A stretch of DNA of 64,000 nucleotides, taken from contig NC_043018.1 of assembly GCF_006345805.1 (NCBI RefSeq), forward strand, positions 17,484,001-17,548,000, in the 5' to 3' direction. The stretch comes from Octopus sinensis. Lineage: Eukaryota. Each line of letters opens with the position of its first letter. Within the stretch, counting starts at the first letter, position 1. A program made the position numbers and the translations under genes. Below, in pieces: positions 14,510 through 57,053 of this stretch. The notes below the pieces were generated by a model that made no database searches, was not told where the DNA came from, and saw only the letters and a program-made list of their open reading frames with translations.

Positions 14510-15021
14510 GACAGCGGGCTGGCAGAAACGTTAGCACGCCGTGCGAAGTGCGTAGCCGTATTTCGTCTGCCGCTACGTTCTGAGTTCAAATACCGCCGAG
14601 GTCGACTTTGCCTTTCATCCTTTCGGGATGCATTAAGGCGGCGAGCTGGCAGAATCGTTAGCACGCCGGGCGAAATGCGTAGCCGTATTTCGTCTGCCGC
14701 TACGTTCTGAGTTCAAATACCGCCGAGGTCGACTTTGCCTTTCATCCTTTCGGGGTCGATTAAATAAGTATCAGTTACGAACTGGGGTTGATATAATCGA
14801 CTTAATCCGTTTGTCTGTCCTTGTTTTTCCCCTCTGTGTTTAGCCCCTTGTGGGTAGTAAAGAAATATGTATTTCGTCTGAGTTCAAATTCCACCACGGT
14901 CGACGATCGTTTTCATCATTTCAGAGTCGATAAACTAAGTACTAATTACGTACTGGGGTCGATCTAGTCGACAGGCCCCTTCCCCACAAATGTCGGGCTT
15001 TGTGTCTAGCTGAGAAAAGAA
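14510..15021 (+). mobile_element. Two adjacent SINE family A copies: 3'-truncated (14510-14628) and long form with a second module and terminal tail (14637-15021)
   Basis: Head occurs twice; the second copy continues TATTTCGTCTGAGTTCAAATTCC...GGGGTCGATCTAGTCGAC...TTGTGTCTAGCTGAGAAAAGA. Confidence 0.85.
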
Positions 15022-30460: not shown

Positions 30461-30497
30461 CACTGTCTTCGGTACGGTGAGAAATAACGATACATAG

Positions 30498-31195
30498 CTA
30501 TTTCTTTACTATCCACAAGGGGCTAAACACAGAAGGGACAAACAAGGACAGGCAAACTGATTAAGTTGATTATATCGACCCCAGTACGTAACTGGTACTT
30601 ATTTAATCGACCCCGAAAGGATGAAAGGCAAAGTCGAGCTCGGCGGAATTTGAAATCAGAAAGTAGCAGCATACGAAATACCTATTTCTTTACTACCCAC
30701 AGGGGCCTAAACACAGAAGGGACAAACAAGGACAGACAAAGTGATTAAGTCGATTATATCGACCCCAGTGCGTAACAGGTACTTATTTAATCCACCCCGA
30801 ACAGATGAAAGGCAACGTCGACCTCGGTGGAATTTGAACTCAGAACGTTAAACAACGAAACAAACCGGACAGGCTGAGATACTACGTAACTTACTTTACC
30901 ACCTTAAAGGCAACGTCGACCTCGGTGGAATTTGAACTCAGAACGTAACGGCAGGCGAAATATCTATTTCTTTACTACCCACAAGGGGCTAAACACAGAA
31001 GGGACAAAAAAGGACAGATAAACGAATTAAGTCGATTATATCGACCCCAGTGCGTAACTGGTGCTTATTTTATCGACCCCGAAAGGATGAAAGGCAAAGT
31101 CGACCTCGGTGGAATTTGAACTCAGAACGTAACGGAAGGCGAAATACTAATAAGCATTTCGCACGGCGTGCTAACGTTTCTGCCAGCACGCCGCC
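30498..31195 (-). mobile_element. SINE family A with one head and a tandem array of about 3.5 body modules
   Basis: CTATTTCTTTACTA(C/T)CCACA recurs at ~30498, ~30682 and ~30964; only one head, at ~31140-31195. Confidence 0.85.
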
Positions 31196-31452
31196 TTACG
31201 ATACATAGCCTCAAACTCACACGCACACACACACACACAATTGTAGACACATATTCGAAGACATACATTTCTTTTTGAGTGTAAGGGTATCTGATTACGT
31301 CTGAGATTCCATGTTTGTCTGAACGTATGTGTTTTTGTTTGTTTTGGCAAATATAAAACTGAATGTCTACAAGTACAAATAGCAATGTATAATTAAAACT
31401 TCCATGTACGTAGGAGGAGAGTCATAGTTAATGTTGTACATACATACATATG

Positions 31453-31484
<32 letters not shown>

Positions 31485-31512
31485 TGTATACATATATATA
31501 TGTATATATATT

Positions 31513-31566
<54 letters not shown>

Positions 31567-31669
31567 TTCGTTGTGAGTACTTGATAATTATAAGCACCTG
31601 TGTATACCGTTTGGTGGTGTAGGTGGTGGAGTAAATTGATCAAAATAAAAACATGATGCGAAGGACTCA

Positions 31670-31747
31670 GCGGTACATATGTTTCGGGCCTTTATTAGAC
31701 AGATTTATAACAATGCATAATGTATGTCTGTGGCCTTCTTCAGCCGC
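31670..31747 (-). ncRNA. Type-I hammerhead ribozyme, intact core, palindromic helix III
   Basis: Minus strand: GCGG-CUGAAGA-AGGCC-(41-nt extension containing AGACA/UGUCU)-GGCCC-GAA-ACAUAUGU-A-CCGC. Predicted cleavage after GUA, between 31674 and 31673. Confidence 0.75.
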
Positions 31748-32556
31748 GCACAACAGCTTCCACAAGGACATGTGTTACATCAAAAATTCTTGGTTGGGGA
31801 TGCAAATCCTCCCAATCGCGCACGACATAATGCGGCAGCAGCATAGAATTGAAGCGTCCATCTCTTTCTTCTCTCAATGTAGGATGAGGAAAAATGGATG
31901 TTGACGTAATGTAAATAAATAAATACATGTATATACGTGAAGATGGAGGGGCGAGAATTCAGGACGAGGGATAAAAAATGTAAAAAAAGTGTAAGTATAG
32001 AAAAATATAAAAATGTAGAGCATAAAAATATAAAGAGATATAAGGAGATGTAAAGGGGGTATAAGAATATAAAGAAATATAAAGAAATATAAATAAATGT
32101 AAAGGCATAAGGTTATAAAGTAAAAATAGAAATAGAAATAAAAATAAAAGTAAAAAAACATGATAAAAAGGTAACAAAATATAAAAAAATATAAAGATAA
32201 GGGATGTATAGAGGTTAAGGACCAAGCATGGTGGTCAGGAGATTGATAAAATTTAGTTGTAGAATTGTCAGTAAATCAACAGTTTCGTCTGGGGACCTAA
32301 TGCGTTGTAAATCATAATTGTTTATGGTATATTCATACCTATAACGATATTGTTCAGCTACTATTTTCATATTCTTATCATCTGCTCTGGCTTTTTTTCA
32401 TGAATATGATGAATCTTTATGACAAATCATTCTTTCTCTGTTTTGGGACCTCGCAGAATATTTGAATTTTTCTTTGTATTTAGCTTATTTTCCTCCTACG
32501 CTAGGTCACTGGTAATGGAAATTTCAAATATTTCTGAGTACCAGTTTGATCCTATT

Positions 32557-32637
<81 letters not shown>

Positions 32638-32642
<5 letters not shown>

Positions 32643-32836
32643 ACGGAGCTTCTACAGGAAGTACTGTTTCATTCAAATGAAATCATCAGGAAATCATCAG
32701 TGCTTCCTGATGATTTCATTTGAATGAAACAGTACTAGTCCTGTAGAAGCTCCTTCTATAAAATAAATAATTTTCTCTACCATGTATGAGTACCCTATTT
32801 ACTGTGGTTTAACCCCGACTCAAACCGGGACCCTAC
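32638..32836 (+). mobile_element. (TA)n-embedded Penelope-pLTR-like element with an inverted partial copy at its 5' side
   Basis: 32638-32692 is the reverse complement of about 32704-32760; the element continues to 32836; (TA)n on both sides. Confidence 0.7.
32702..32750 (+). ncRNA. Type-I hammerhead ribozyme, intact core, weak helix II
   Basis: GCUUC-CUGAUGA-U-UUC-auuu-GAA-U-GAA-ACAG-uacuaguc-CUGU-A-GAAGC. Helix I is 5 bp and helix III 4 bp; cleavage predicted after A32745. Confidence 0.65.
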
Positions 32837-32837
32837 A

Positions 32838-32893
<56 letters not shown>

Positions 32894-34289: not shown

Positions 34290-35061
34290 TTCGAGACAAA
34301 ACCACTATTTTGCAAAACAAACAAGGAAAGACTTAATCAATACATTTTATATTTTTATTATTAATGTTTGTTTTATAGTGGTGGTATGTAAGTATGTATC
34401 TGGACTGGTATGTATGTATGTATATATATATAATATATATATATATTATGTGTTATGTGTGTGTGTGTGTGTGTCGGTATGTATCACTATTGTATTTGCT
34501 ACACATCGCTGAATTCGCATGCTAGCTTTCAGATGATCTCCCTGGCTAAGAGAGTAACATCTATATCATATATTTCCAATAATAGCTACAATAATGTAGT
34601 TGTGTGCAAATGTACCATGCGTATGTGTTTGATGTAGCATGTATCTGGATGGCTGTATAATCTAGAAAATATTTCACTAACACACACACCCACAAGTATA
34701 TCTGCCCTGTACCCTCGGTACACACACACACCTACAATTGGACGTACACACACTACATTCGTATCACACACATGTATACGTACTACAGGAATATGTGTGT
34801 ATAAAATATGATGGGTGTGTTGGAGGTATATGCATGTATGTACGGATGTCTGCGTGAGCTGTATATATGAATGAACGTATAGTTAATGAGATTCTTGTTT
34901 GGAAATTTTATAAAACCAGACATGAAATTAAAGAAACGTCTCTCGTGAATTGAGATGTTTATTCTGTCAATTTCAAATTAAGTTTGACTTTTGTTGAATA
35001 CAAACACACACACAAACACACACACGCAGACACAGTCACATACATATATATGAATATATAC

Positions 35062-35093
<32 letters not shown>

Positions 35094-35542
35094 TTATGTA
35101 TCTATATAAATGTATGTATGTACGTATCAATATTGATGCTGATAGGTATGTAAATGGATAAAGACAGACATGCATATATGCGCGTGGGTTTGTTTATATG
35201 TATGTATACACACACATATATACGTAGGCACAAATGCATGTATGTATATAAATATAATTATGTACACTTGTTTGAGTGAGTGTGTGGAGGTGTGTGGGGA
35301 GAAAACTCAATTCAATGTTACGAATCTTTCGATTTGGTGTGCAGTGCTTTATGGAATGCAAGTATGGATGGTTTACTTTATACAACTGATGATGATAATG
35401 ATCATATTGATGCTGATGAGGACGATGATGGCGACATCGATGAAGAGGACACCGATGATGGTGATTTTGCTGAGACGTAAACATTCATTCAGACATAGCA
35501 ATTAATAGATTAAAGATAGATAAAAGAGAAATAGACATAATG

Positions 35543-35687
<145 letters not shown>

Positions 35688-36513
35688 AGTTATATATAAT
35701 ATATATATATTATATATATTATGTATATATATATATATGAATATATGCGTTTGCACTTCTTCGCTCGGAAGGCAGAGGCCAACACAGACACATCAAAACA
35801 AATACGGAATGCATATATATAGGTATATATGCATGTGTCTGTTTATATGTTTGCACACATGTGTGTATGAATGAATGTATGTATGTGTGCGTATGATATT
35901 ATATATATATATATGGGTGTGTGTGTTTGTATGTATCTACGTATGTATGTGTGTATGCATCTGTGTATGTATGTATGTGTTTTTGTATGTATGTATATAG
36001 GTTTGTATGTATGTACATGTGTGTATATATATGTATGAGTGTATGTATGCAGGCTTTAACAATCTTCTCCTGACATATCGCTTTCTTCCTTTTGTCCCAA
36101 GAGAGCAAAATTGAGAAAAGTTATTAAAACTTGATGCCAGATCAGGCGAATCTAAAATTGCACTTTTGCAATTTACGTAACATCGCTGCTAGTGATTCTC
36201 TAGATGTAGATGTAGTATAAATCACAATTTGGTTGAGAATAATTTCAAATATATCACACATATTCTTCCTGTTTCTTTGAGATTTTCTCCATTTTTTTCT
36301 TTTTTTTTGGGGGGGGGTCTTTTTGTTGGTAGGCATTCAGTTTTGCATTTCGCAAAAATGTTAGATGCGTGACTTTATCAATTTTTCATCGCTTAATATA
36401 CATAAAATGCGATCAATGTAGGAAGGCTGTGCACGGTATTAGTGTCTCTCAGTTAATATCTGAGCAGTTGTGTCGATTTGTGTGTACTTGTGTGTGGTGT
36501 GTGTGTGTATGTG

Positions 36514-36571
<58 letters not shown>

Positions 36572-37222
36572 ATGATATATAGAAAAGTTTCAACATTCAG
36601 AAAACTTTGACAGTGTCTTCGAAGTTTCTGCTTTTACCTGACTGTGTTTTATTTGTGCACTTTTCCTTTTGACATTATACCAATTTATTTTCTTGCCTTT
36701 TCGACATCGTACGCCGAGTACTTATACCTGTGCAAGTAATAATTCGGTGGGATGTAGGAAGAACAGATACAGGTAGTTTTTCAATTTTGGAAATGTGTTT
36801 TCTAATGTCACTGAAACCTAAAGAATAACTTGATTCTCATATCAAACAAAATTATCACTCACACCTTAACTTTATTCCAACAGACACCATTTAAATATCT
36901 ACTTTTTTTCTCTTCCTCACTTTCCCACGTCCTCCACAAAAAAGTTGCTGTAATAAATAAACCACAACTAATTTCATTCACGTAGATCCAGTTGCTGTAA
37001 ATATAATTTAACAAGAATTGTGTAAAATCACCCAAAATGAAACACAGTTAAATTGAAGGTGAGAAAGTCGAAATTCAAGTCAATATTCAACTTCCCATGT
37101 GTGTGATCTTTCAGTTTAATGTTAAATCACAATTTACCTAACTTGATATAAAGAAAATAATCTATATGCATGTATATATATATATATATATATAATATGC
37201 ATACACATACATACATACATAC

Positions 37223-37273
<51 letters not shown>

Positions 37274-37375
37274 ATAGATATATAGACATACATATGTATA
37301 TAATGCATACAATATATATATATATATACTAATATATATATAGATATATATGCTTTTATATATATATATAAATGC

Positions 37376-37548
37376 TGGCTGTGTGGTATGTGGGTAAGTA
37401 GCTTGTTACCAACCACAGGGTTCCGGGTTCAGTCCCACTGCGTGGCATCTTGGGCAAGTGTCTTCTGCTATAGCCCCGGGGACCGACCAATGCCTTGTAA
37501 GTGGATTTGGTAGACGGAAACTGAAAGAAGCCTGTCGTATATATATAG

Positions 37549-37584
<36 letters not shown>

Positions 37585-37794
37585 GTGTGGGTGTCTGTGT
37601 TTGTCCCCCTAGTATTGCTTGACAACCAATGCTGGTATGTTTACGTCCCCGTCACTTAGCGGTTCGGCAAAAGAGACCGATAGAATAAGTACTGGGCTTA
37701 CAAAGAATAAGTCCCAAGGTCGATTTGCTCGATTAAAGGCGGTGCTCCAGCATGGCCGCAGTCAATGACTGAAACAGTAAAAGAGTAAAAGAGT
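37376..37794 (+). mobile_element. SINE family B copy (duplicated at 45349-45769)
   Basis: Family B sequence. Confidence 0.9.
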
Positions 37795-38251
37795 ATATAT
37801 ATATGTGTGTGTGTATATACATATATATGTGTATCACCATTGCATGCAAGGTGTGATCATGTATTAGATGTAAGTGACATTAGTGTGTAGTAAAGAAAGC
37901 ATCTTCATGGAAAATTTTTACCACTTTGTTATTATTTTTTAATAGCAATGATGGTGGATGAAAAACATTTATATTACACTGGTACTGTTGTTTCTGAATG
38001 TGGCTCCAATGTTAATAATGTGATATTCATCTCGTAAATGATCATATTATATATGTCCCGTACTCTATTTTTTGCTGTTTTTAAAAAAAAATGTCCAGTT
38101 CCTTTGCTTTGGGTCTATGGTTTTCGTTTTTCATTGTGTTCGACGTCCTTTTGGTGTCCTCTACTCATATATGCGTGTGTATAGTACATGTAGAGGTAGG
38201 TACGTACATATATGTTTATATATGCATAGTTTTATTTTATTTATTAATATT

Positions 38252-38291
<40 letters not shown>

Positions 38292-38298
38292 TATATAA

Positions 38299-38336
<38 letters not shown>

Positions 38337-39097
38337 ATTCGGATTTTGACGACTGTTGTTCTTTATGGAACTTACTTACATATACCAGAGAAAGAATACT
38401 AGAACCATTTATGGTTTTATAATAGCTTAATGTAGCTACTTGGCAAACTAATCGTGAAAAAGATCTCGTTTGAATTATCTAATCCTAGCAAGCAAGATAC
38501 GAAAAAATAATCCACAAAAGGATGAAATATACTTAAAATTCTATTTAAGCAGGCCCCGCTTTGTTATGTAATTTATATCGTGCAGATTCGCTACCAGCTA
38601 AATACAAATGTTATTACGTATATCATTTATGCTGTTTGCTCAAATGAACATAGAGAATAGATTGAATTATAAACAGTACTGAACTCAAATTATATTTCCT
38701 ATCCTGGCTTTATTTTCCTAATTTATCAATGGTGTACTAATATTTCATGTTTAGTCATGCAAAAACATAGCAAAAAGATGTAACAAAACAGGAATATATA
38801 TTTTCATAGGACTTTGAACTCTTTATTTTCAGCGATGACCGCACACTCTTCACTTTTCTCATCTTTTCCATCCTACTTGCTAATATTGACATCACGGAAG
38901 GTCATCTAGCCCTTGTGAGAAAATGTGTTTATTTACCGATATGGTCATAGGTATACGACAAGAAGGGAAACAGGGGAAGAGAGAAACAGAAGAAAAAAAA
39001 TTTAATGTTTTGCAATGAAATTTCAATGGGTTATTACATCAAATTGAAAACAAACATATATTTCTGTATATAACTTATATTTAAATCTATGTGTGTA

Positions 39098-39510
39098 GGC
39101 GTAGGAGTGGCTGTGTGGGAAGTAGCTTGCTTAAGGACCACATGGTTCTGGGTTCAGTCCCACTGCGTGACAGCTTGGGCAAGTGTCTTCTACTATAACC
39201 TCTGGCCGAACATGGTGGACGGAAACTGAAAGAAGCCCGTCGTATATATATTTATATATATATGTGTGTGTATATCTGTTTGTGTGTTTGCGTTTGTCCC
39301 CCCAACATCGCTTGGCAACTGATGCTGCTGTGTTTATGACACCGTAACTTAGCGGTTCGGCAAAAGGGATCGATAGAATAAGTGCTAGGCGTCCTGGGGT
39401 CGATTTGCTGACAGGAAGAGGTCCAGTCCTGGGGTCGATTTGCCTGACTAAAGGTGGTGCTCCAGCATGGCCACAGTCAAATGACTGAAACAAGTAAAAG
39501 GGAGAGAGTA
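39098..39510 (+). mobile_element. SINE family B copy with an internal deletion and a short internal duplication (duplicated at 47074-47486)
   Basis: GTCCTGGGGTCGATTTGC occurs twice (~39390 and ~39426). Confidence 0.85.
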
Positions 39511-39775
39511 TGTATATATATCTTATATCTTATATATTCTTAATGTTTCATGCGTTTCAAGAATTAGCCGACACAAGTATCTTTTAAGCCTGGTATTTAT
39601 TTCATCGGGTTGCTTTGCCGAAACCCTAAGATAGCGACGGTAAACAGAGATTCAAAGACACACATACACACACACACCCACACACACAAACACAGACACC
39701 ACATATATATATATATATTATATATATATATATATATATAACATGTGTGTATATATATTATATGTATATATATAT

Positions 39776-40020
39776 ACGGAAAGCTTTATGAAAATAAACA
39801 AAAAGACGAAGGCAGGTGGAGTACAAACAAACAATTGTATTAGTATGGCGCTCAGGATATAAATAAAATAAGTCTTTTACGTTTCGAGCCTACGCTCTTC
39901 AACAGAAAAATGATACACAGAAAAGAAGAAACACGGAGAGAAAAAAGGAGAGAAAAAATGCGTGCAGAAGCTAGCCATTCAACATGGCGATCTGATCCTG
40001 GTCAGAAGTCAGAGATCAAA
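39776..40020 (-). mobile_element. (TA)n-adjacent element with a variant minimal hammerhead at 39874-39909 (duplicated near 47752-47990)
   Basis: Minus strand: UUUU-CUGUUGA-A-GAGC-guag-GCUC-GAAACG-UA-AAAG. Shares the CGCTCAGGA flank with the element at 400-612. Confidence 0.6.
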
Positions 40021-40542
40021 CCATATATACATACATACACACATACATACATACACACATACATACATGCATATACGCATATATATGTGTGTATAAATAC
40101 ATATATGTATACTTTAAAAGTGTTTGTGTTGTAACGTATGTGTATTTAAAATGTGTTTCGAGCTTTATATTTTCGCTCTAGATTCCACTTGGAATATAAA
40201 TTGTAAAAATAAAAGAAACCTTGTTCATATTCACTGGATCTGGCAAAGGAAATGCTGCAACGCTATTGCATGAACTAAGAACATAAAAAATGAGTTTGAA
40301 AAAAAGATAGAGACAACAATTTCATATGATTGATCATGGCACTTCTCTTATATTCAGTGGAGAGACTTATTCCATCCTGCATAATGTGAGAAAGGCTACT
40401 CGATCTCCAATTCATTATCTAGCATTGATGTGTGTGTGTCAGTGAGTGTGTGTGAGCGTGTATGCGTGTGTACACATACATACGAATATATGTACATACA
40501 TACGTACATATTTACATACACACTTACATACATTAATGAAAA

Positions 40543-40584
<42 letters not shown>

Positions 40585-41700
40585 GTGAGTGTGTGTTGAA
40601 ATGAAATACAAAAGGTGAATAGCGCGTTAGAAATACGTCCTTTTATTACAATCACTTTCATTTTGTTTTCCTTTTTTTTTTTTTGTTATTTTGGTCATAT
40701 GCAGTAGTTGAATACAAATGAAATAGATTTAAAACTTATATCTTGTCTTCAGAGATGTGTGTCACGCGCTCAATAATTGGATATTACGGAAGTACACTCA
40801 GGTAAGATATATCACAAAGGTGTAACTTTGAATGTTTATTAATTTGTAATGTAGTTTTGTCTGTTCGGCAACTCTTTGTCATTTATGTCTAGAATTAATG
40901 CTACTCATATGTCAGAGATTACATTATTTCATGCGCTTCCAAAGAATCGCATATTCATATCGCAGATATGTTCCGTATTAATGAGACACTTTTACTGCAG
41001 GGGAAAAAGAATTTGAAAACAGCAGATACTTTATAGACAAAGAATATTGCAAAGTGACGGCAGTTTCAAGATGTCAACGTTCCACTAAATATTTACTTTA
41101 ATGATTCACAAATGGATTATTTAGAATCGATTCGCGTCGAAATCCACACAGTTCACGCACACACTCATAAGCAAACATGCATCCACATGTACATACATGC
41201 ACACACATACATACATGCAATCACCAACATAAATTCTTTCATATATTATGTGTGCGCATGCATGTTGTATAAATATATATGTATGTATAGGGGAAAAATC
41301 GGAAAAATCAATGAAAATGCACATTGTGAATAAAAAAATGCAGCTTGTAAATAAAAAAGAAAAGGCTTTTTATGAAAGGTAACGACAGATATATACATTT
41401 AGATTTACTGAGGTAGTAATAAAGGTCATAAAAGTCATTATAATGAGCTTATCATAAAGTCAGAAAGCAAAGCATACCATGGTTTCGTGAAAGCTGTTCA
41501 TTGCTTTGAATAAACGGTGTCAGGTCTAATAGTTCCTGAGAAAAAAGATTATTTGTAAGGGGGATAAGTAGTTCAGGATTATTTGTAAGGGAGATAAGTA
41601 GTTCTGGATTTAGATATAGAATTGTAATGTAAATGGTATATGGAGTGTATAGGAGTTAGTGGTTTTAATTGAAGGGTTAGTGGTGTCCTGTAATAAGTTG

Positions 41701-42320
41701 TGTGTTCATATTTAGTTGGGGGAGGTATTTATTGATGGAAAATATCTCTTTATTCAACCTTTGTTGCATTGTGGTGTTCTGTGAAAAATTCATAGAAGGG
41801 GAAGATTTGGAAATTAGGATTAAGATTCCTAGCACACCTATCTATGTGTTCACTAACCTCTAACTGTATTGTGGGTGGCGGATTTGCTCTTTGTGAATGG
41901 TGGTTCTTCGACGGAGTGAAAATCCTGTTTGTCCAATATAGCGGTTACCGCATCCTAAGCATGTCATGACATGGATTAAATTTTCCGAGGCCTAGGTGAA
42001 ATTTGATTTGATCTTAAACGTTTCTCGTTGTTTGAAGTGAAATTCTGAAAACTCCAAAAGGTGGGGGCATGTTCCACAGTTAGGACGACCACATTTTTTT
42101 CACTTTTTGCTCTGTTGATAGTGGTATAGACTTGCGCTGGTTAATATTTTTTTTCAGTGACTTCGGTTGGTTTTGCTTTTTATAATTCTGTATGAGCTTA
42201 AAATTTCGTTCATTGTTTTGTCTGCTGTGAGGATGAGAAGATTTTGGGTGATGATGCAGAAAGCTTCGTTGTTTCTAGGGTTATGTGTGGAAATGTACGG
42301 AGTATTTTAAAGTCTGGTTT
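41701..42320 (-). pseudogene. Penelope-like element ORF 3' end: RT thumb, Cys linker and GIY-YIG endonuclease, with stops and frameshifts
   Basis: Translations (pieced across frameshifts; the first motif is in frame in the second copy): ILPYISTHNPRN...IIKSK; KKCGRPNCGTCPHL; FT*ASENLIHVMTCLGCGNRYIGQTGFSLRRRTTIHKEQIRHPQY; EVSEHIDRCARN; QRLNKEIFSINKYLPQLN. Confidence 0.9.
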
Positions 42321-42365
42321 ATTATTTAAATATATTCTAACTGTATAGTTGTTGCTTAATAGATT

Positions 42366-42540
42366 ATTCAGTTCTATATTTAAGAGATGAGGAATTATGT
42401 ACATTATTTACATATTTATATTTGACGGATATTTGTCTCATTTGTTTGTTGTTAAAAAGTTTTCAGTTTCTGATATACTCTCCAGCCTTCATCGGGTGTC
42501 TTGGGGAAATTTTGAACCTGGGTTCTCGTTCCTAAGGTGT
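42366..42540 (-). mobile_element. pLTR-like segment with a degenerate hammerhead upstream of the Penelope remnant (cleaner copy at 50334-50515)
   Basis: Same sequence as 50422-50467 with additional small indels. Confidence 0.6.
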
Positions 42541-42725
42541 TTGCTGTTGTTGGTGTTGTTATATTATTATTATTATTAATATTAATGTCACTGCTTGGAA
42601 TCGAACTCTACCACTACGCCATAAGTCCGTGTATGAATGCATGTATAAATAGATAGATAGATAGTTAGATAGTTAGAAAGATAGATAGATAGATAAATAG
42701 ATAGATATATAGATAGATAGATAGG

Positions 42726-42826
<101 letters not shown>

Positions 42827-43060
42827 GGTAGAAAGATAGATAGATAAGCATGCAAATGATGCTTCATATTGTACTACATTTATTAAATTTTGATGGCAGA
42901 TGAATATTATGAACCGCGGTGCTCTCCCTAGCCAATTTCTATATCATCCTTCCTTTGTAAAAACGATACAATTCTATGTCCGGGCAACCGGCTAAATATT
43001 TCATCTATCAGCTTTATGCCATTTTTATTTAGACACGTTATATTTACTATTTATTAGCAT

Positions 43061-43160
43061 NNNNNNNNNNNNNNNNNNNNNNNNNNNNNNNNNNNNNNNN
43101 NNNNNNNNNNNNNNNNNNNNNNNNNNNNNNNNNNNNNNNNNNNNNNNNNNNNNNNNNNNN
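43061..43160. other. 100-N scaffold gap
   Basis: Exactly 100 N. Confidence 1.
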
Positions 43161-43573
43161 GCGTGGGTTTGTTATATGTATGTATACACACACATATATA
43201 CGTAGGCACAAATGCATGTATGTATATAAATATAATTATGTACACTTGTTGAGTGAGTGTGTGGAGGTGTGTGGGAGAGAAAACTCAATTCAATGTTACG
43301 AATCTTCGATTGGTGTGCAGTGCTTTATGGAATGCAAGTATGGATGGTTTACTTTATACAACTGATGATGATAATGATCATATTGATGCTGATGAGGACG
43401 ATGATGGCGACATCGATGAAGAGGACACCGATGATGGTGATTTTGTGAGACGTAAACATTCATTCAGACATAGCAATTAATAGATTAAAAGATAGATAAA
43501 GAGAAATAGACATAAATGTATATATATATATATATATTATATATATATATATATATATACTTATATATATATA

Positions 43574-43642
<69 letters not shown>

Positions 43643-43664
43643 ATTATATTTATATATATATTAT

Positions 43665-43695
<31 letters not shown>

Positions 43696-45195
43696 GAAAT
43701 ATATGCGTTTGCACTTCTTCGCTCGGAAGGCAGAGGCCAACACAGACACATCAAAACAAATACGGAATGCATATATATAGGTATATATGCATGTGTCTGT
43801 TTATATGTTTGCACACATGTGTGTATGAATGAATGTATGTATGTGTGCGTATGAATATATATATATATATATATGGGTGTGTGTGTTTGTATGTATCTAC
43901 GTATGTATGTGTGTATGCATCTGTGTATGTATGTATGTGTTTTTGTATGTATGTATATAGGTTTGTATGTATGTACATGTGTGTATATATATGTATGAGT
44001 GTATGTATGCAGGCTTTAACAATCTTCTCCTGACATATCGCTTTCTTCCTTTTGTCCCAAGAGAGCAAAATTGAGAAAAGTTATTAAAACTTGATGCCAG
44101 ATCAGGCGAATCTAAAATTGCACTTTTGCAATTTACGTAACATCGCTGCTAGTGATTCTCTAGAAGTAGATGTAGTATAAATCACAATTTGGTTGAGAAT
44201 AATTTCAAATATATCACACATATTCTTCCTGTTTCTTTGAGATTTTCTCCATTTTTTAATTTTTTTTTTTGGGGGGGGGTCTTTTTGTTGGTAGGCATTC
44301 AGTTTTGCATTTCGCAAAAATGTTAGATGCGTGACTTTATCAATTTTTCATCGCTTAATATACATAAAATGCGATCAATGTAGGAAGGCTGTGCACGGTA
44401 TTAGTGTCTCTCAGTTAATATCTGAGCAGTTGTGTCGATTTGGTGTACGTTTGGTGTGTGGTGTGTGTGTGTTGTGGTATGTGTGGTGGTAGCGGTGTGT
44501 GTGTGGTGTGTGTGTGTGGTGTGTGTGTGTGTGTGTGTGTGTTAATGATATATAGAAAAGTTTCAACATTCAGAAAACTTTGACAGTGTCTTCGAAGTTT
44601 CTGCTTTTACCTGACTGTGTTTTATTTGTGCACTTTTCCTTTTGACATTATACCAATTTATTTTCTTGCCTTTTCGACATCGTACGCCGAGTACTTATAC
44701 CTGTGCAAGTAATAATTCGGTGGGATGTAGGAAGAACAGATATAGGTAGTTTTTCAATTTTGGAAATGTGTTTTCTAATGTCACTGAAACCTAAAGAATA
44801 ACTTGATTCTCATATCAAACAAAATTATCACTCACACCTTAACTTTATTCCAACAGACACCATTTAAATATCTACTTTTTTTCTCTTCCTCACTTTCCCA
44901 CGTCCTCCACAAAAAAGTTGCTGTAATAAATAAACCACAACTAATTTCATTCACGTAGATCCAGTTGCTGTAAATATAATTTAACAAGAATTGTGTAAAA
45001 TCACCCAAAATGAAACACAGTTAAATTGAAGGTGAGAAAGTCGAAATTCAAGTCAATATTCAACTTCCCATGTGTGTGATCTTTCAGTTTAATGTTAAAT
45101 CACAATTTACCTAACTTGATATAAAGAAAATAATCTATATGCATGTATATATATATATATATATATAATATGCATACACATACATACATACATAC

Positions 45196-45246
<51 letters not shown>

Positions 45247-45522
45247 ATAGATATATAGACATACATATGTATATAATGCATACAATATATATATATATAT
45301 ACTAATATATATATAGATATATATGCTTTTATATATATATATAAATGCTGGCTGTGTGGTATGTGGGTAAGTAGCTTGTTACCAACCACAGGGTTCCGGG
45401 TTCAGTCCCACTGCGTGGCATCTTGGGCAAGTGTCTTCTGCTATAGCCCCGGGGACCGACCAATGCCTTGTAAGTGGATTTGGTAGACGGAAAACTGAAA
45501 GAAGCCTGTCGTATATATATAG

Positions 45523-45558
<36 letters not shown>

Positions 45559-46225
45559 GTGTGGGTGTCTGTGTTTGTCCCCCTAGTATTGCTTGACAAC
45601 CAATGCTGGTATGTTACGTCCCCGTCACTTAGCGGTTCGGCAAAAGAGACCGATAGAATAAGTACTGGGCTTACAAAGAATAAGTCCCAAGGTCGATTTG
45701 CTCGATTAAAGGCGGTGCTCCAGCATGGCCGCAGTCAATGACTGAAACAAGTAAAAGAGTAAAAGAGTATATATATATGTGTGTGTGTATATACATATAT
45801 ATGTGTATCACCATTGCATGCAAGGTGTGATCAATGTTATAGATGTAAGGTGACATTAGTGTGTAGTAAAGAAAGCATCTTCATGGAAATTTTACCACTT
45901 TGTTATTATTTTTTAATAGCAATGATGGTGGATGAAAAACATTTATATTACACTGGTACTGTTGTTTCTGAATGTGGCTCCAATGTTAATAATGTGATAT
46001 TCATCTCTGTAAATGATCATATATATATATGTCCCGTACTCTATTTTTTGCTGTTTTTAAAAAAAAATGTCCAGTTCCTTTGCTTTGTGTCTATGTTTTC
46101 GTTTTTCATTGTGTTCGACGTCCTTTTGGTGTCCTCTACTCATATATGCGTGTATATGTACATGTAGAGGTAGGTACGTACATATATGTTTATATATGCA
46201 TAGTTTTATTTTATTTATTAATATT

Positions 46226-46265
<40 letters not shown>

Positions 46266-46272
46266 TATATAA

Positions 46273-46310
<38 letters not shown>

Positions 46311-48511
46311 ATTCGGATTTTGACGACTGTTGTTCTTTATGGAACTTACTTACATATACCAGAGAAAGAATACTAGAACCATTTATGGTTTTATAATAGC
46401 TTAATGTAGCTACTTGGCAAACTAATTCGTGAAAAAGATCTCGTTTGAATTATCTAATCCTAGCAAGCAAGATACGAAAACATAATCCTACAAAAGGATG
46501 AAATATACTTAAAATTCTATTTAAGCAGGCCCCGCTTTGTTATGTAATTTATATCGTGCAGATTCGCTACCAGCTAAATACAAATGTTATTACGTATATC
46601 ATTTATGCTGTTTGCTCAAATGAACATAGAGAATAGATTGAATTATAAACAGTACTGAACTCAAATTATATTTCCTATCCTGGCTTTATTTTCCTAATTT
46701 ATCAATGGTGTACTAATATTTCATGTTTAGTCATGCAAAAACATAGCAAAAAGATGTAACAAAACAGGAATATATATTTTCATAGGACTTTGAACTCTTT
46801 ATTTTCAGCGATGACCGCACACTCTTCACTTTTCTCATCTTTTCCATCCTACTTGCTAATATTGACATCACGGAAGGTCATCTAGCCCTTGTGAGAAAAT
46901 GTGTTTATTTACCGATATGGTCATAGGTATACGACAAGAAGGGAAACAGGGGAAGAGAGAAACAGAAGAAAAAAAATTTAATGTTTTGCAATGAAATTTC
47001 AATGGGTTATTACATCAAATTGAAAACAAACATATATTTCTGTATATAACTTATATTTAAATCTATGTGTGTAGGCGTAGGAGTGGCTGTGTGGGAAGTA
47101 GCTTGCTTAAGGACCACATGGTTCTGGGTTCAGTCCCACTGCGTGACAGCTTGGGCAAGTGTCTTCTACTATAACCTCTGGCCGAACATGGTGGACGGAA
47201 ACTGAAAGAAGCCCGTCGTATATATATTTATATATATATGTGTGTGTATATCTGTTTGTGTGTTTGCGTTTGTCCCCCCAACATCGCTTGGCAACTGATG
47301 CTGCTGTGTTTATGACACCGTAACTTAGCGGTTCGGCAAAAGGGATCGATAGAATAAGTGCTAGGCGTCCTGGGGTCGATTTGCTGACAGGAAGAGGTCC
47401 AGTCCTGGGGTCGATTTGCCTGACTAAAGGTGGTGCTCCAGCATGGCCACAGTCAAATGACTGAAACAAGTAAAAGGGAGAGAGTATGTATATATATCTT
47501 ATATCTTATATATTCTTAATGTTTCATGCGTTTCAAGAATTAGCCGACACAAGTATATTTAAGCTGGTATTTATTTCATCGGGGTGCTTTGCCGAAACCC
47601 TAAGATAGCGACGGTAAACAGAGAGATTCAAAGACACACATACACACACACACCCACACACACAAACACAGACACCACATATATATATATATATTATATA
47701 TATATATATATATATAACATGTGTGTATATATATTATATGTATATATATATACGGAAAGCTTTATGAAAATAAACAAAAGACGAAGGCAGGTGGAGTACA
47801 AACAAACAATTGTATTAGTATGGCGCTCAGGGATATAAATAAAATAAGTCTTTTACGTTTCGAGCCTACGCTCTTCAACAGAATGATACACAGAAAAGAA
47901 ACACGGAGAGAAACAAGGAGAGAAAAAATGCGTGCAGAAGCTAGCCATTCAACATGGCGATCTGATCCTGGTCAGAAGTCAGAGATCAAACCATATATAC
48001 ATACATACACACATACATACATACACACATACATACATGCATATACGCATATATATGTGTGTATAAATACATATATGTATACTTTAAAAGTGTTTGTGTT
48101 GTAACGTATGTGTATTTAAAATGTGTTTCGAGCTTTATATTTTCGCTCTAGATTCCACTTGGAATATAAATTGTAAAAATAAAAGAAACCTTGTTCATAT
48201 TCACTGGATCTGGCAAAGGAAATGCTGCAACGCTATTGCATGAACTAAGAACATAAAAAATGAGTTTGAAAAAAAGATAGAGACAACAATTTCATATGAT
48301 TGATCATGGCACTTCTCTTATATTCAGTGGAGAGACTTATTCCATCCTGCATAATGTGAGAAAGGCTACTCGATCTCCAATTCATTATCTAGCATTGATG
48401 TGTGTGTGTCAGTGAGTGTGTGTGAGCGTGTATGCGTGTGTACACATACATACGAATATATGTACATACATACGTACATAGTTACATACACACTTACATA
48501 CATTAATGAAA

Positions 48512-48553
<42 letters not shown>

Positions 48554-49666
48554 GTGAGTGTGTGTTGAAATGAAATACAAAAGGTGAATAGCGGTTAGAA
48601 ATACGTCCTTTTATTACAATCACTTTCATTTTGTTTTCCTTTTTTTTTTTTGTTATTTTGGTCATATGCAGTAGTTGAATACAAATGAAATAGATTTAAA
48701 ACTTATATCTTGTCTTCAGAGATGTGTGTCACGCGCTCAATAATTGGATATTACGGAAGTACACTCAGGTAAGATATATCACAAAGGTGTAACTTTGAAT
48801 GTTTATTAATTTGTAATGTAGTTTTGTCTGTTCGGCAACTCTTTGTCATTTATGTCTAGAATTAATGCTACTCATATGTCAGAGATTACATTATTTCATG
48901 CGCTTCCAAAGAATCGCATATTCATATCGCAGATATGTTCCGTATTAATGAGACACTTTTACTGCAGGGGAAAAAGAATTTGAAAACAGCAGATACTTTA
49001 TAGACAAAGAATATTGAAAGTGACGGCAGTTTCAAGATGTCAACGTTCCACTAAATATTTACTTTAATGATTCACAAATGGATTATTTAGAATCGATTCG
49101 CGTCGAAATCCACACAGTTCACGTACACACTCATAAGCAAACATGCATCCACATGTACATACATGCACACACATACATACATGCAATCACCAACATAAAT
49201 TCTTTCATATATTATGTGTGCGCATGCATGTTGTATAAATATATATGTATGTATAGGGGAAAAATCGGAAAAATCAATGAAAATGCACATTGTGAATAAA
49301 AAAATGCAGCTTGTAAATAAAAAAGAAAAGGCTTTTTATGAAAGGTAACGACAGATATATACATTTAGATTTACTGAGGTAGTAATAAAGGTCATAAAAG
49401 TCATTATAATGAGCTTATCATAAAGTCAGAAAGCAAAGCATACCATGGTTTCGTGAAAGCTGTTCATTGCTTTGAATAAACGGTGTCAGGTCTAATAGTT
49501 CCTGAGAAAAAAGATTATTTGTAAGGGGGATAAGTAGTTCAGGATTATTTGTAAGGGAGATAAGTAGTTCTGGATTTAGATATAGAATTGTAATGTAAAT
49601 GGTATATGGAGTGTATAGGAGTTAGTGGTTTTAATTGAAGGGTTAGTGGTGTCCTGTAATAAGTTG

Positions 49667-50288
49667 TGTGTTCATATTTAGTTGGGGGAGGTATTTATTG
49701 ATGGAAAATATCTCTTTATTCAACCTTTGTTGCATTGTGGTGTTCTGTGAAAAATTCATAGAAGGGGAAGATTTGGAAATTAGGATTAAGATTCCTAGCA
49801 CACCTATCTATGTGTTCACTAACCTCTAACTGTATTGTGGGTGGCGGATTTGCTCTTTGTGAATGGTGGTTCTTCGACGGAGTGAAAATCCTGTTTGTCC
49901 AATATAGCGGTTACCGCATCCTAAGCATGTCATGACATGGATTAAATTTTCCGAGGCCTAGGTGAAATTTGATTTGATCTTAAACGTTTCTCGTTGTTTG
50001 AAGTGAAATTCTGAAAACTCCAAAAGGTGGGGGCATGTTCCACAGTTAGGACGACCACATTTTTTTCACTTTTTGCTCTGTTGATAGTGGTATAGACTTG
50101 CGCTGGTTAATATTTTTTTTCAGTGACTTCGGTTGGTTTTGCTTTTTATAATTCTGTATGAGCTTAAAATTTCGTTCATTGTTTTGTCTGCTGTGAGGAT
50201 GAGAAGATTTTGGGTGATGATGCAGAAAGCTTCGTTGTTTCTAGGGTTATGTGTGGAAATGTACGGGAGTATTTTAAAGTCTGGTTTA
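49667..50288 (-). pseudogene. Second copy of the Penelope RT-thumb/GIY-YIG remnant
   Basis: ORF 50120-50371 gives KILPYISTHNPRNNEAF...IIKSK; the rest is as at 41701-42320. Confidence 0.9.
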
Positions 50289-50421
50289 TTATTTAAATAT
50301 ATTCTAACTGTATAGTTGTTGCTTAATAGATTATTCAGTTCTATATTTAAGAGATGAGGAATTATGTACATTATTTACATTATTTATATTTGACGGATAT
50401 TTGTCTCATTTGTTTGTTGTT

Positions 50422-50467
50422 AACAAAACGTTTCAGCTGATATACTCTCCAGCCTTCATCGGGTGTC
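50422..50467 (-). ncRNA. Degenerate minimal type-I hammerhead
   Basis: GACAC-CCGAUGA-A-GGCUG-gagaguauau-CAGCU-GAAACG-UU-UUGUU. U4C core change and one mismatch in helix I. Confidence 0.6.
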
Positions 50468-50701
50468 TTGGGGAAATTTTGAACCTGGGTTCTCGTTCCT
50501 AAGGTGTTTGCTGTTGTTGGTGTTGTTGTTATTATTATTATTATTAATATTAATGTCACTGCTTGGAATCGAACTCTACCACTACGCCATAAGTCCGTGT
50601 ATGAATGCATGTATAAATAGATAGATAGATAGTTAGATAGTTAGAAAGATAGAAGATAGATAGATAAATAGATAGAATATAGATAGATGATAGGTAGATA
50701 G

Positions 50702-50800
<99 letters not shown>

Positions 50801-51377
50801 GTAGAAAGATAGATAGATAAGCATGCAAATGATGCTTCAATATTTGTACTACATTTATTAAATTTTGATGGCAGATGAATATTATGAACCGCGGTGCTCT
50901 CCCTAGCCAGTTTCTATATCATCCTTCCTTTGTAAAAAACGATACAATTCTATGTCCGGCAACGGCTAAATATTTCATATCAGCTTTATGCCATTTATTT
51001 CAGACACGTTATATTTACTATTTATTTAGCATAGTGCACATATATTTGTTCATTATCTCGTCTGCTTGAAGTTCTGCACTCTGCATAGATATGTGTGCAA
51101 ACCCATTCGTATATATATATTTGTGAGTGTATGTGTGTGTATTTTTACATAAGGAAGAGGCCTACGGAAAAGAGAATAGGAAGGAAAACAGGAAATCATG
51201 TACGAAATGTAGACAAATATTTGGGAACACATAACACATTTTAAGTATAACACCTTAAAGAATTAATATAGGTGCACACACTTAGTTTGGTTTGGGATAT
51301 ATAATCCTATGGCGCCCAAAATATACATATGCATATATATACATATATATATATATATGTGTGTGTGTGTGTTTATA

Positions 51378-56070: not shown

Positions 56071-57053
56071 TTAGGTTGTTCCGAAAATAATAACCGATTT
56101 CAGAAACATAGTTTTATTCTGGAAAAATTAACAATAAAACTGTTTTGATTAGTCCAAATATGAGCCGTGGACATCTAGGTACCTCTGAAATCGATTAACG
56201 AGATAAAAAACTTATTGGCCTTGATGCTAATAACGTGTTTAAATGCTTTAAAAATACTAGTCAATGGGTGAAAGATCCGTAGAATATGGAAAATGTAGAA
56301 ACGTCTCGTATCCAAAGTCTGTGAGTTTCTCCAGCGTCATCCTTGCAACATGCGACTTTGCATAATCGTGGAGCAGAATTGGGCCACACCGATTCCTCAA
56401 TGCAAGTTTCATATTTTATCAAGTGAGCATGCATTTGAGTGAGTTGATTGCTGTAAACCTATGCTGTAATGCTCTGATTGGCTTCCAGAAGCTGTAAGGG
56501 TCAACACCAATTGCAGACCAAGAGACGGTCACAATAATATTTTGCTGATGCAACTTTAGGTTTGGAAAATGTTTGGGGGACTCATAGTGACCAAGCATTT
56601 GAGCTGATAGTTTACGGTTATCCTAAAGGAACCACTTTTCGGCACAAGTGATTATTCGGCCAGGAAAAGCACCATTGGTGTTTCGCCGAACATTTTGATT
56701 TGCATTGAGCTCATGAGGTGCCCATTTATCGAGCTTTTTCACCTGATCAATCTTCAGCAGATTGCGTGAGACCGTGGCAATACCGACACCAAGTGCCTGA
56801 GACATTTCTATGACACTTTCAACAATTGCTTTCATTTGTTCATTGTCAAGACTGCATGACTATCCTCTATCTTCTTGATCTTGAAGGCTCTTCTCACCAC
56901 TACAGAATTTCTGAAACTATCTTCATACTACGTGATCACTTGTGGACCCCTCTCCTCTTGCCTTGTTAATATTGGCAGTAGTTTGCGAGGCATTGTGTCT
57001 GAGCTTCAACTGATACAAGAAAACTAAGTGAAGCTCATTTTTGTCATGTTCAT
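56071..57053 (-). mobile_element. Decayed mariner (Hsmar1/cecropia-like) DNA transposon: transposase pseudogene and one TIR
   Basis: Pieces: VFLYQLKLRHNASQTTANINKA...FQKFCSGEKSLQDQE; KKLDKWAPHEL (WVPHEL motif); RIITCAEKW; GPILLHDYAKSH (HDNARPH); HFPYSTDLSPID (YSPDLAP.D). TA|TTAGGTTGTTCCGAAAATAATAACCGATTT at 56069-56100. Confidence 0.9.

What the first reader, a model, noticed from the sequence alone, without database searches (positions are those of the whole stretch)
31670..31747. Best candidate active hammerhead: intact core, long helix II, palindromic helix III
Seen, minus strand: GCGG/CCGC helix I, CUGAAGA, GGCC/GGCC helix II with an A-C apposition at its base and a 41-nt extension (AGACA/UGUCU, AUGCAU), GAAA, self-complementary ACAUAUGU, and a GUA site. 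It lies near the 3' end of a ~1-kb non-coding island (about 31570-32560) between (TA)n tracts. Established: a palindromic helix III is typical of hammerheads that cleave as dimers. Inference: a potentially self-cleaving RNA; if intronic it could cut a host pre-mRNA.
Basis: partly seen in the sequence, partly recalled or inferred. Interest (0 to 1): 0.7.

Follow-up and report, generated by a model that had tools for sequence, protein, structure and literature searches.

The report
Octopus Penelope-type hammerhead, long arm
This is a real hammerhead self-cutting RNA motif at the tail of a cut-short copy of a jumping gene that has over a thousand near-identical copies in this genome; its arm is unusually long and holds a poly(A) signal, but this lone copy is predicted to cut poorly, if at all.

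Summary
The hammerhead is there as described (minus strand 31747-31670, predicted cut 31674/31673). It is not a unique island. It is the 3' end of a 5'-truncated (~757 bp) copy of a young Hydra-type Penelope-like retroelement: 1,140-1,473 exact matches to its two halves in the genome, three intact 842-codon RT/GIY-YIG frames, (TA)n targets, optional tail. Helices I-III covary across sister families, and helix III stays palindromic (19 of 24 variants), as in dimer-cleaving PLE hammerheads. The A·C at the base of helix II is the family's fixed state (1,139 of 1,140), not damage to this copy. Two features differ from published Hydra hammerheads: helix II is 51 nt (12-26 published), and an AAUAAA in it ends 17 nt before the cut (13 of 24 variants). 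Copies show no footprint of cutting: 1 ends at the cut site against 1,473 that run through. This copy has no same-strand partner in the window; transcription and an intronic position were not shown. This scan already noted long-armed octopus PLE hammerheads, and the AAUAAA, on other DNA. Verdict: new variant of a known kind, modest interest.

The parts
31670..31747 (-). Type I hammerhead motif of the element's 3' repeat (pLTR); predicted cut after GUA, between 31674 and 31673
   Evidence: covariation in sister families
31686..31736 (-). Helix II, 51 nt: A·C apposition at its base, 4-bp GGCC/GGCC stem, 41-nt extension
   Evidence: z -2.0 against base shuffles; A fixed in 1,139 of 1,140 copies
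31691..31696 (-). AAUAAA in the 3' arm of helix II, ending 17 nt before the predicted cut; predicted unpaired in this family
   Evidence: use as a poly(A) signal is inferred, not shown
31675..31682 (-). Palindromic helix III ACAUAUGU, predicted 8-bp helix between two copies
   Evidence: (dimer fold)
31641..31655 (-). U-rich run 18-33 nt after the cut site, placed like a downstream poly(A) element (inference)
   Evidence: similar U/GU-rich runs follow the cut in most of the 24 variants printed
31566..31632 (-). Optional ~60-nt AC-rich tail; in full tandem elements this sequence continues into the 5' end of the ORF
   Evidence: 35 short ends, 37 with tail, 5 running on to the ORF, of 77 distinct flanks
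31566..32322 (-). 5'-truncated copy (3' UTR end, hammerhead, tail) of a Hydra-type Penelope-like element; 97-98% identical to the best other copies; no ORF left
31440..31565 (.). (CT)n/(TA)n tract at the element's 3' end, the family's target
32323..32493 (.). Piece of an older, unrelated repeat to which the truncated 5' end is joined (1 shared base at the joint)

Best explanation
The motif is the hammerhead at the 3' end of a truncated copy of a Hydra-type Penelope-like retroelement that has spread to more than a thousand places in this genome, and it is predicted to cut only as a dimer, so this lone copy is likely inert. Shown: full elements (4.4-4.8 kb unit, RT plus GIY-YIG frame) sit in tandem with two or three such hammerheads on one strand; copies insert in (TA)n and run 40-100 nt past the cut site. 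Inferred: in read-through transcripts of tandem elements two hammerheads pair through the ACAUAUGU palindrome and cut slowly after GUA, probably helped by protein as in the anole element; new copies are made mostly from uncut RNA, primed at the two ends of the tail; the AAUAAA in helix II likely serves as the element's poly(A) signal, packed into the arm rather than placed just 3' of the ribozyme.
For: Copy number and identity. ORF and Hydra motifs: against PMC8557442 section 11. Tandem same-strand hammerheads 0.9-4.8 kb apart in L094-L096, first one 191 nt before the ATG. Covariation: 95% of cells paired, 10 of 13 pairs with two-sided changes, 0 of 500 shuffles reach the score, slid controls 22-45%. 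Palindrome kept with six different sequences, 19 of 24 variants. Dimer energy. 1 copy ends at the cut against 1,473 running through; 2 copies begin there against 1 at a control position. Low, dimer-dependent activity of metazoan PLE hammerheads: PMC4209133; protein-assisted cutting, dispensable for insertion, no RNA reads ending at the cut: PMC11167929. Only one family copy in the window.
Against: No cleavage or poly(A) use was measured. The scan that collected the variants required helices I and II (>=3 bp), so their covariation is partly selected; only the inner palindrome and the AAUAAA were unselected. The variants are related, so 13 of 24 is about five lineages, and 11 of 24 lack the hexamer there (some have TATAAA or carry AATAAA 3' of the ribozyme). 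The hexamer is unpaired in this family but paired 0.16-0.95 in the other 12. A·C at 10.1·11.1 may lower activity further. Family placement rests on motifs, not on a tree with the published Hydra proteins; Pfam found no RT family in two ORF pieces. With >1,000 copies, pairing in trans with another transcript is possible.
Confidence: 0.75

Rival explanations
1. Ribozyme and poly(A) machinery compete for the same site: helix II presents AAUAAA 16-27 nt before the hammerhead cut, and cutting would separate the signal from the U-rich element, switching the RNA between a tailed mRNA and an untailed or read-through template. This extends the best explanation rather than replacing it.
For: A[AT]TAAA ends 10-30 nt before the cut in 13 of 24 variants; shuffled helix II gives mean 0.92, maximum 6 in 5,000; 0 of 24 have it in the 5' half. 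U/GU-rich runs follow the cut. Predicted fully unpaired in this family. In one group the hexamer is inside the arm in L111 and just 3' of the ribozyme in L102/L140.
Against: Not independent sequences; pairing state varies; no poly(A) loose end among those listed in seven contig sets guessed to be RNA (13 and 2 rows not shown); overlap may be simple packing of two signals in a short end.
Confidence: 0.25
2. In this family the ribozyme has lost catalysis: the G10.1-C11.1 pair became A·C, and the fold is kept only as a binding site or end signal.
For: A·C fixed here, A·A in sister variant L130, G-C or G-U in outgroups. No footprint of cutting in genomic copies. HHR cutting was dispensable for insertion in vitro in the anole element.
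Against: The core is invariant across the aligned families. Mismatches at this position are common in Hydra hammerheads: U·U in 14 of 26 rows of File S2 by my reading; PMC3088659 reports natural U·U there and says it supports more cleavage than other mispairs.
Confidence: 0.2
3. This particular copy is an active ribozyme that cuts a host pre-mRNA running through the locus.
For: Core intact, identical to the family. Contigs of runs guessed to be RNA hold family sequence. Trans pairing with other copies is conceivable.
Against: No same-strand partner in the window; monomer helix III is 2 bp plus a 4-nt loop; no Pfam match above cut-off in 150 of 203 window ORFs; RNA status and locus of origin not established; contigs bridge the cut site (record 1, records 3, 21).
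Confidence: 0.06

Closest known systems
Hydra clade of C-terminal EN+ Penelope-like elements, e.g. Hydra-1_Obim (Craig et al. 2021, PMC8557442; section 11, passages and supplementary Files S1/S2 parts read)
   Same: DKT motif, CxCx5C linker, C-terminal GIY-YIG with CxxC and CxH around the conserved E and N, no CCHH, (TA)n targets, tandem and inverted copies, tail, sense-strand type I hammerhead near the 3' end with palindromic helix III and often a mismatch at the base of helix II.
   Different: Unit 4.4-4.8 kb with a 1.7-2 kb 3' UTR (published: generally <3 kb); RWA for RWK; helix II region 51 nt (12-26 nt in the 26 Hydra rows of File S2, my count); AAUAAA inside helix II; different family from Hydra-1_Obim (different hammerhead sequence).
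Metazoan PLE hammerheads with small palindromic helix III (Cervera and De la Pena 2014, PMC4209133; parts 1-2 of 4 read)
   Same: Type I fold, 4-bp helix I, palindromic helix III, pLTR location, many lone or opposite-strand copies from truncated elements, predicted dimer dependence.
   Different: They describe an extra unpaired base before a conserved G10.1-C11.1 and a 6-8 bp helix II; here the alignment favours an A·C at 10.1·11.1 and a far longer arm.
Poseidon element of the green anole, PAc (Frangieh et al. 2024, PMC11167929; parts 1-2 of 4 read)
   Same: Two 3' end points defining an AC-rich tail downstream of the hammerhead; copies made from RNA not cut at the hammerhead.
   Different: There the ORF starts inside the hammerhead; here the ATG lies 191 nt after the cut. 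Different clade.
Animal non-LTR retrozymes (10.64898/2026.07.22.740005, part 1 of 5 read; PMC7229834 seen as search listing only)
   Same: Type I hammerhead, dimer logic, proposed PLE origin.
   Different: Retrozymes are short tandem units each with a hammerhead; this is a single truncated end of an autonomous element.

Membership tests
Type I hammerhead ribozyme | Core CUGANGA, GAAA, NUH in order with three helices | tested here: met
   core columns invariant
Type I hammerhead ribozyme | Helices supported by covariation | tested here: met
   on 10 hand-picked variants; partly selected by the scan for helices I and II
Type I hammerhead ribozyme | G10.1-C11.1 pair (usual, not invariant) | tested here: not met
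   A·C in 1,139 of 1,140 copies; mismatches here are known
Type I hammerhead ribozyme | Self-cleavage | not testable with these tools
   needs in vitro assay; genomic and contig footprints negative or uninformative
Penelope-like element (EN+) | Single ORF with RT and GIY-YIG in the parent element | tested here: met
   842-codon open frames in 3 places; RDD and VIY..YIG motifs; absent from the window copy
Penelope-like element (EN+) | Tandem/pLTR and inverted 5'-truncated arrangements, optional tail | tested here: met
Hydra clade | DKT in place of DKG | tested here: met
Hydra clade | CxCx5C linker; CxxC and CxH around E and N; no CCHH | tested here: met
   read from the protein
Hydra clade | RWK motif | tested here: inconclusive
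   RWA here, RWK in related family L098
Hydra clade | Insertion into (TA)n | tested here: met
Hydra clade | Generally under 3 kb (descriptive) | tested here: not met
   tandem unit 4,440-4,769 bp
Hydra clade | Groups with published Hydra proteins in a tree | not tested
   published sequences were seen only as cut text in the supplement
Non-LTR retrozyme | Two or more tandem short units each with a hammerhead | tested here: not met
   single copy in the window

The most novel reading that the evidence does not exclude
Octopus Hydra-type retroelements have moved their poly(A) signal into a lengthened hammerhead arm so that the ribozyme cut falls where the poly(A) machinery cuts: one RNA structure that switches a transcript between tailed mRNA and reverse-transcription template, giving PLE hammerheads a testable job in 3'-end control.
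Probability: 0.22. Interest if true: 0.65.

Novelty: new variant of a known kind. Interest (0 to 1): 0.33.

Why it matters
Hammerheads in Penelope-like elements are known, and their role is still open. This family shows that size-limited descriptors (spacer 7-17 nt in one search of PMC8557442) and Rfam thresholds miss over a thousand such motifs in one genome, that a mismatch at the most conserved stem pair does not stop a family from spreading, and that copies are made from uncut RNA. If the AAUAAA in the arm is used, the role of these ribozymes in 3'-end formation becomes directly testable. The single locus itself is ordinary.

Tried and rejected
Rfam: 0 matches. PDB sequence search with the ORF: 0. 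Pfam on ORF pieces: no RT family, only a weak GIY-YIG in another element's frame. Register 'extra A9b plus bulged C' was my first reading; dropped after the sister-family alignment placed A at 10.1 without a gap. Sequencing runs: no RNA holder listed on record; 14 holders are only guessed RNA, kept as contigs, so strand, level and ends cannot be read. Contig starts at 31671 are explained by a variant 30 nt away at 31701; a depth drop at 31660 in run X3 is not seen in X7, X4 or X2: no conclusion. Pile-up of 5' ends at the cut: not found (2 real junctions among 4 hits, 1 at the control); 1 of 11 distinct ORF-upstream junctions lies within 3 nt of the cut. Preferred 5' end at +52: 7 hits, 5 were small indel variants, rejected. 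Host gene: no Pfam match above cut-off in 150 of 203 filtered window ORFs, which does not exclude a long intron. Lunse et al. 2017 is not held; I saw only the review's account (PMC6765202). Literature searches for a poly(A) signal in a PLE hammerhead found nothing relevant: 'hammerhead, Penelope, polyadenylation signal' (1 review, passage about Clec2) and 'Penelope-like, hammerhead, AATAAA' (0); subscription papers and bioRxiv supplements were not searchable. The octopus repeat paper PMC13282606 has no 'hammerhead' or 'Hydra' in its main text.

Full report
Observation. A descriptor with a palindromic helix III finds it once in the window and never in 200 block shuffles. The monomer fold is not more stable than shuffles (z 0.28), and Rfam reports nothing at gathering score.

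It is a retroelement end. The 151 nt around the motif gave 1,197 candidates in the genome; the 40 scored were 99-100% identical. Exact patterns count 1,140 copies of the 5' half and 1,473 of the 3' half. Matches to the window stop at 32322; upstream of that point other copies share a different sequence, so the window copy is 5'-truncated and joined to a piece of an older repeat (735 candidates, 83-88% identity). Following other copies upstream leads, about 2 kb away, to an ORF with reverse-transcriptase and GIY-YIG motifs, open for 842 codons at three places. Copies end in (TA)n at two points about 40 and 100 nt past the cut site: 35 short, 37 with tail, 5 running on into the ORF, of 77 distinct flanks. 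Many are inverted pairs, and tandem loci carry two or three hammerheads on one strand, 0.9-4.8 kb apart, the upstream one 191 nt before the ATG. The protein has DKT, CxCx5C, CxxC and CxH, lacks CCHH, and has RWA where a relative has RWK: the marks of the Hydra clade in PMC8557442 (section 11). That paper lists an octopus Hydra family. That the host is an octopus is my inference from these repeats and from the two named protein hits, both Argonauta. No tree with the published proteins was made.

Comparative anatomy. I scanned all fetched loci for hammerheads (50 distinct rows) and kept 23 of them plus one. Dropped: 10 near-identical variants of this family, 13 near-duplicates of families kept (five with ACGAUUGU, self-pairing only with G·U), and 4 short-armed motifs (12-31 nt) taken to be other elements. 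Not all 24 were shown to belong to a Hydra ORF. Their helix II region is 21-85 nt and folds as a rod, against 12-26 nt in the 26 Hydra rows of File S2 (my count; two spike-moss PLE motifs there also have long loops). Helix III is a perfect palindrome in 19 of 24, with six different sequences; the scan did not require this. On 10 aligned variants, 95% of cells pair, 10 of 13 pairs show two-sided changes, no shuffle reaches the score and slid controls fall to 22-45%; the scan had required at least 3 bp in helices I and II. Two copies of the window motif fold into the dimer form at -35.4 kcal/mol against 2 x -11.8.

The A·C. The alignment puts the A at position 10.1 without a gap; outgroup families have G-C or G-U, one sister variant A·A. 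Only 1 of 1,140 copies has another base there. So the family spread with this mismatch. U·U at this place is common in published Hydra motifs (14 of 26 rows) and is discussed as tolerated in PMC3088659 (passage). Its effect on rate here is unknown.

The AAUAAA. The last six bases of the extension are AAUAAA, ending 17 nt before the cut, and a U-rich run follows the cut. A[AT]TAAA ends 10-30 nt before the cut in 13 of 24 variants (shuffle mean 0.92, maximum 6 of 5,000) and is never in the 5' half. These are about five related groups, not 13 events; 11 of 24 lack it there. It is predicted unpaired in this family but not consistently elsewhere. The spacing fits the usual cleavage-and-polyadenylation geometry (my knowledge), but no poly(A) end was seen in the contigs laid, which cannot show ends well. 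My searches found no paper on this arrangement.

Is cutting used? One copy stops at the cut site against 1,473 that run through it. Two copies begin exactly there, among 4 pattern hits, against 1 at a control position 12 nt upstream; these patterns see only about half of such junctions. So the RNAs that were copied into the genome were nearly all uncut. This agrees with the anole element, where cutting needed the protein, was dispensable for insertion and left no read ends (PMC11167929), and with the low dimer-only activity in PMC4209133.

This locus. The window holds one copy of the family, without ORF. The other hammerhead-like pair at 32642-32755 has a different helix III. No host exon was recognised, and no RNA holder is on record. 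Cutting of a host pre-mRNA here is therefore unsupported, though not excluded.

Verdict. A real hammerhead of a known kind in a known class of element; a variant by its long arm, internal AAUAAA and fixed A·C. I reached this reading before looking at earlier notes; the scan had noted long-armed octopus PLE hammerheads six times and the internal hexamer once on other DNA. These notes are unchecked and are not counted as evidence. Interest 0.33.

Noticed in passing
window 32642-32850: Inverted pair of ends of another (TA)n-flanked repeat, each with a short-armed hammerhead-like motif (CUGAUGA, 12-nt helix II with U·U base, long helix III); the two halves fold on each other at -80.7 kcal/mol.
   Followed up: partly
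window 32323-32493: Older unclassified repeat (735 candidates, 83-88%) whose other copies end in microsatellites at the 32493 side; it carries a decayed core-like AUGAUGA..GAAA stretch.
   Followed up: partly
window about 35000-43000 and 43000-51000: About 8-kb tandem duplication with an N gap near 43060-43160; may be real or an assembly artefact.
   Followed up: no
L098-L112, L122-L141: Many further Hydra-type families in this genome (35-85% protein identity), several with open frames of 850-1,100 codons and long-armed hammerheads up to 85 nt.
   Followed up: partly
L095:2200-2260: TACTCAC followed about 45 nt later by TAG/G between hammerhead and ATG, a possible branch point and 3' splice site of a 5' UTR intron (recalled motif).
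   Followed up: no
L145:1502, L142:1502, L097:1962: Three copies whose 5' junction lies at or within 3 nt of the predicted cut site; not above the background rate.
   Followed up: yes
window 56422-56765: Decayed mariner-type transposase fragment (Pfam Transposase_1, E 2e-4, below cut-off).
   Followed up: no
window 14514-14754, 30494-31200: Tandem copies of SINE-like repeats, 127- and 184-bp periods; SINE label recalled.
   Followed up: no
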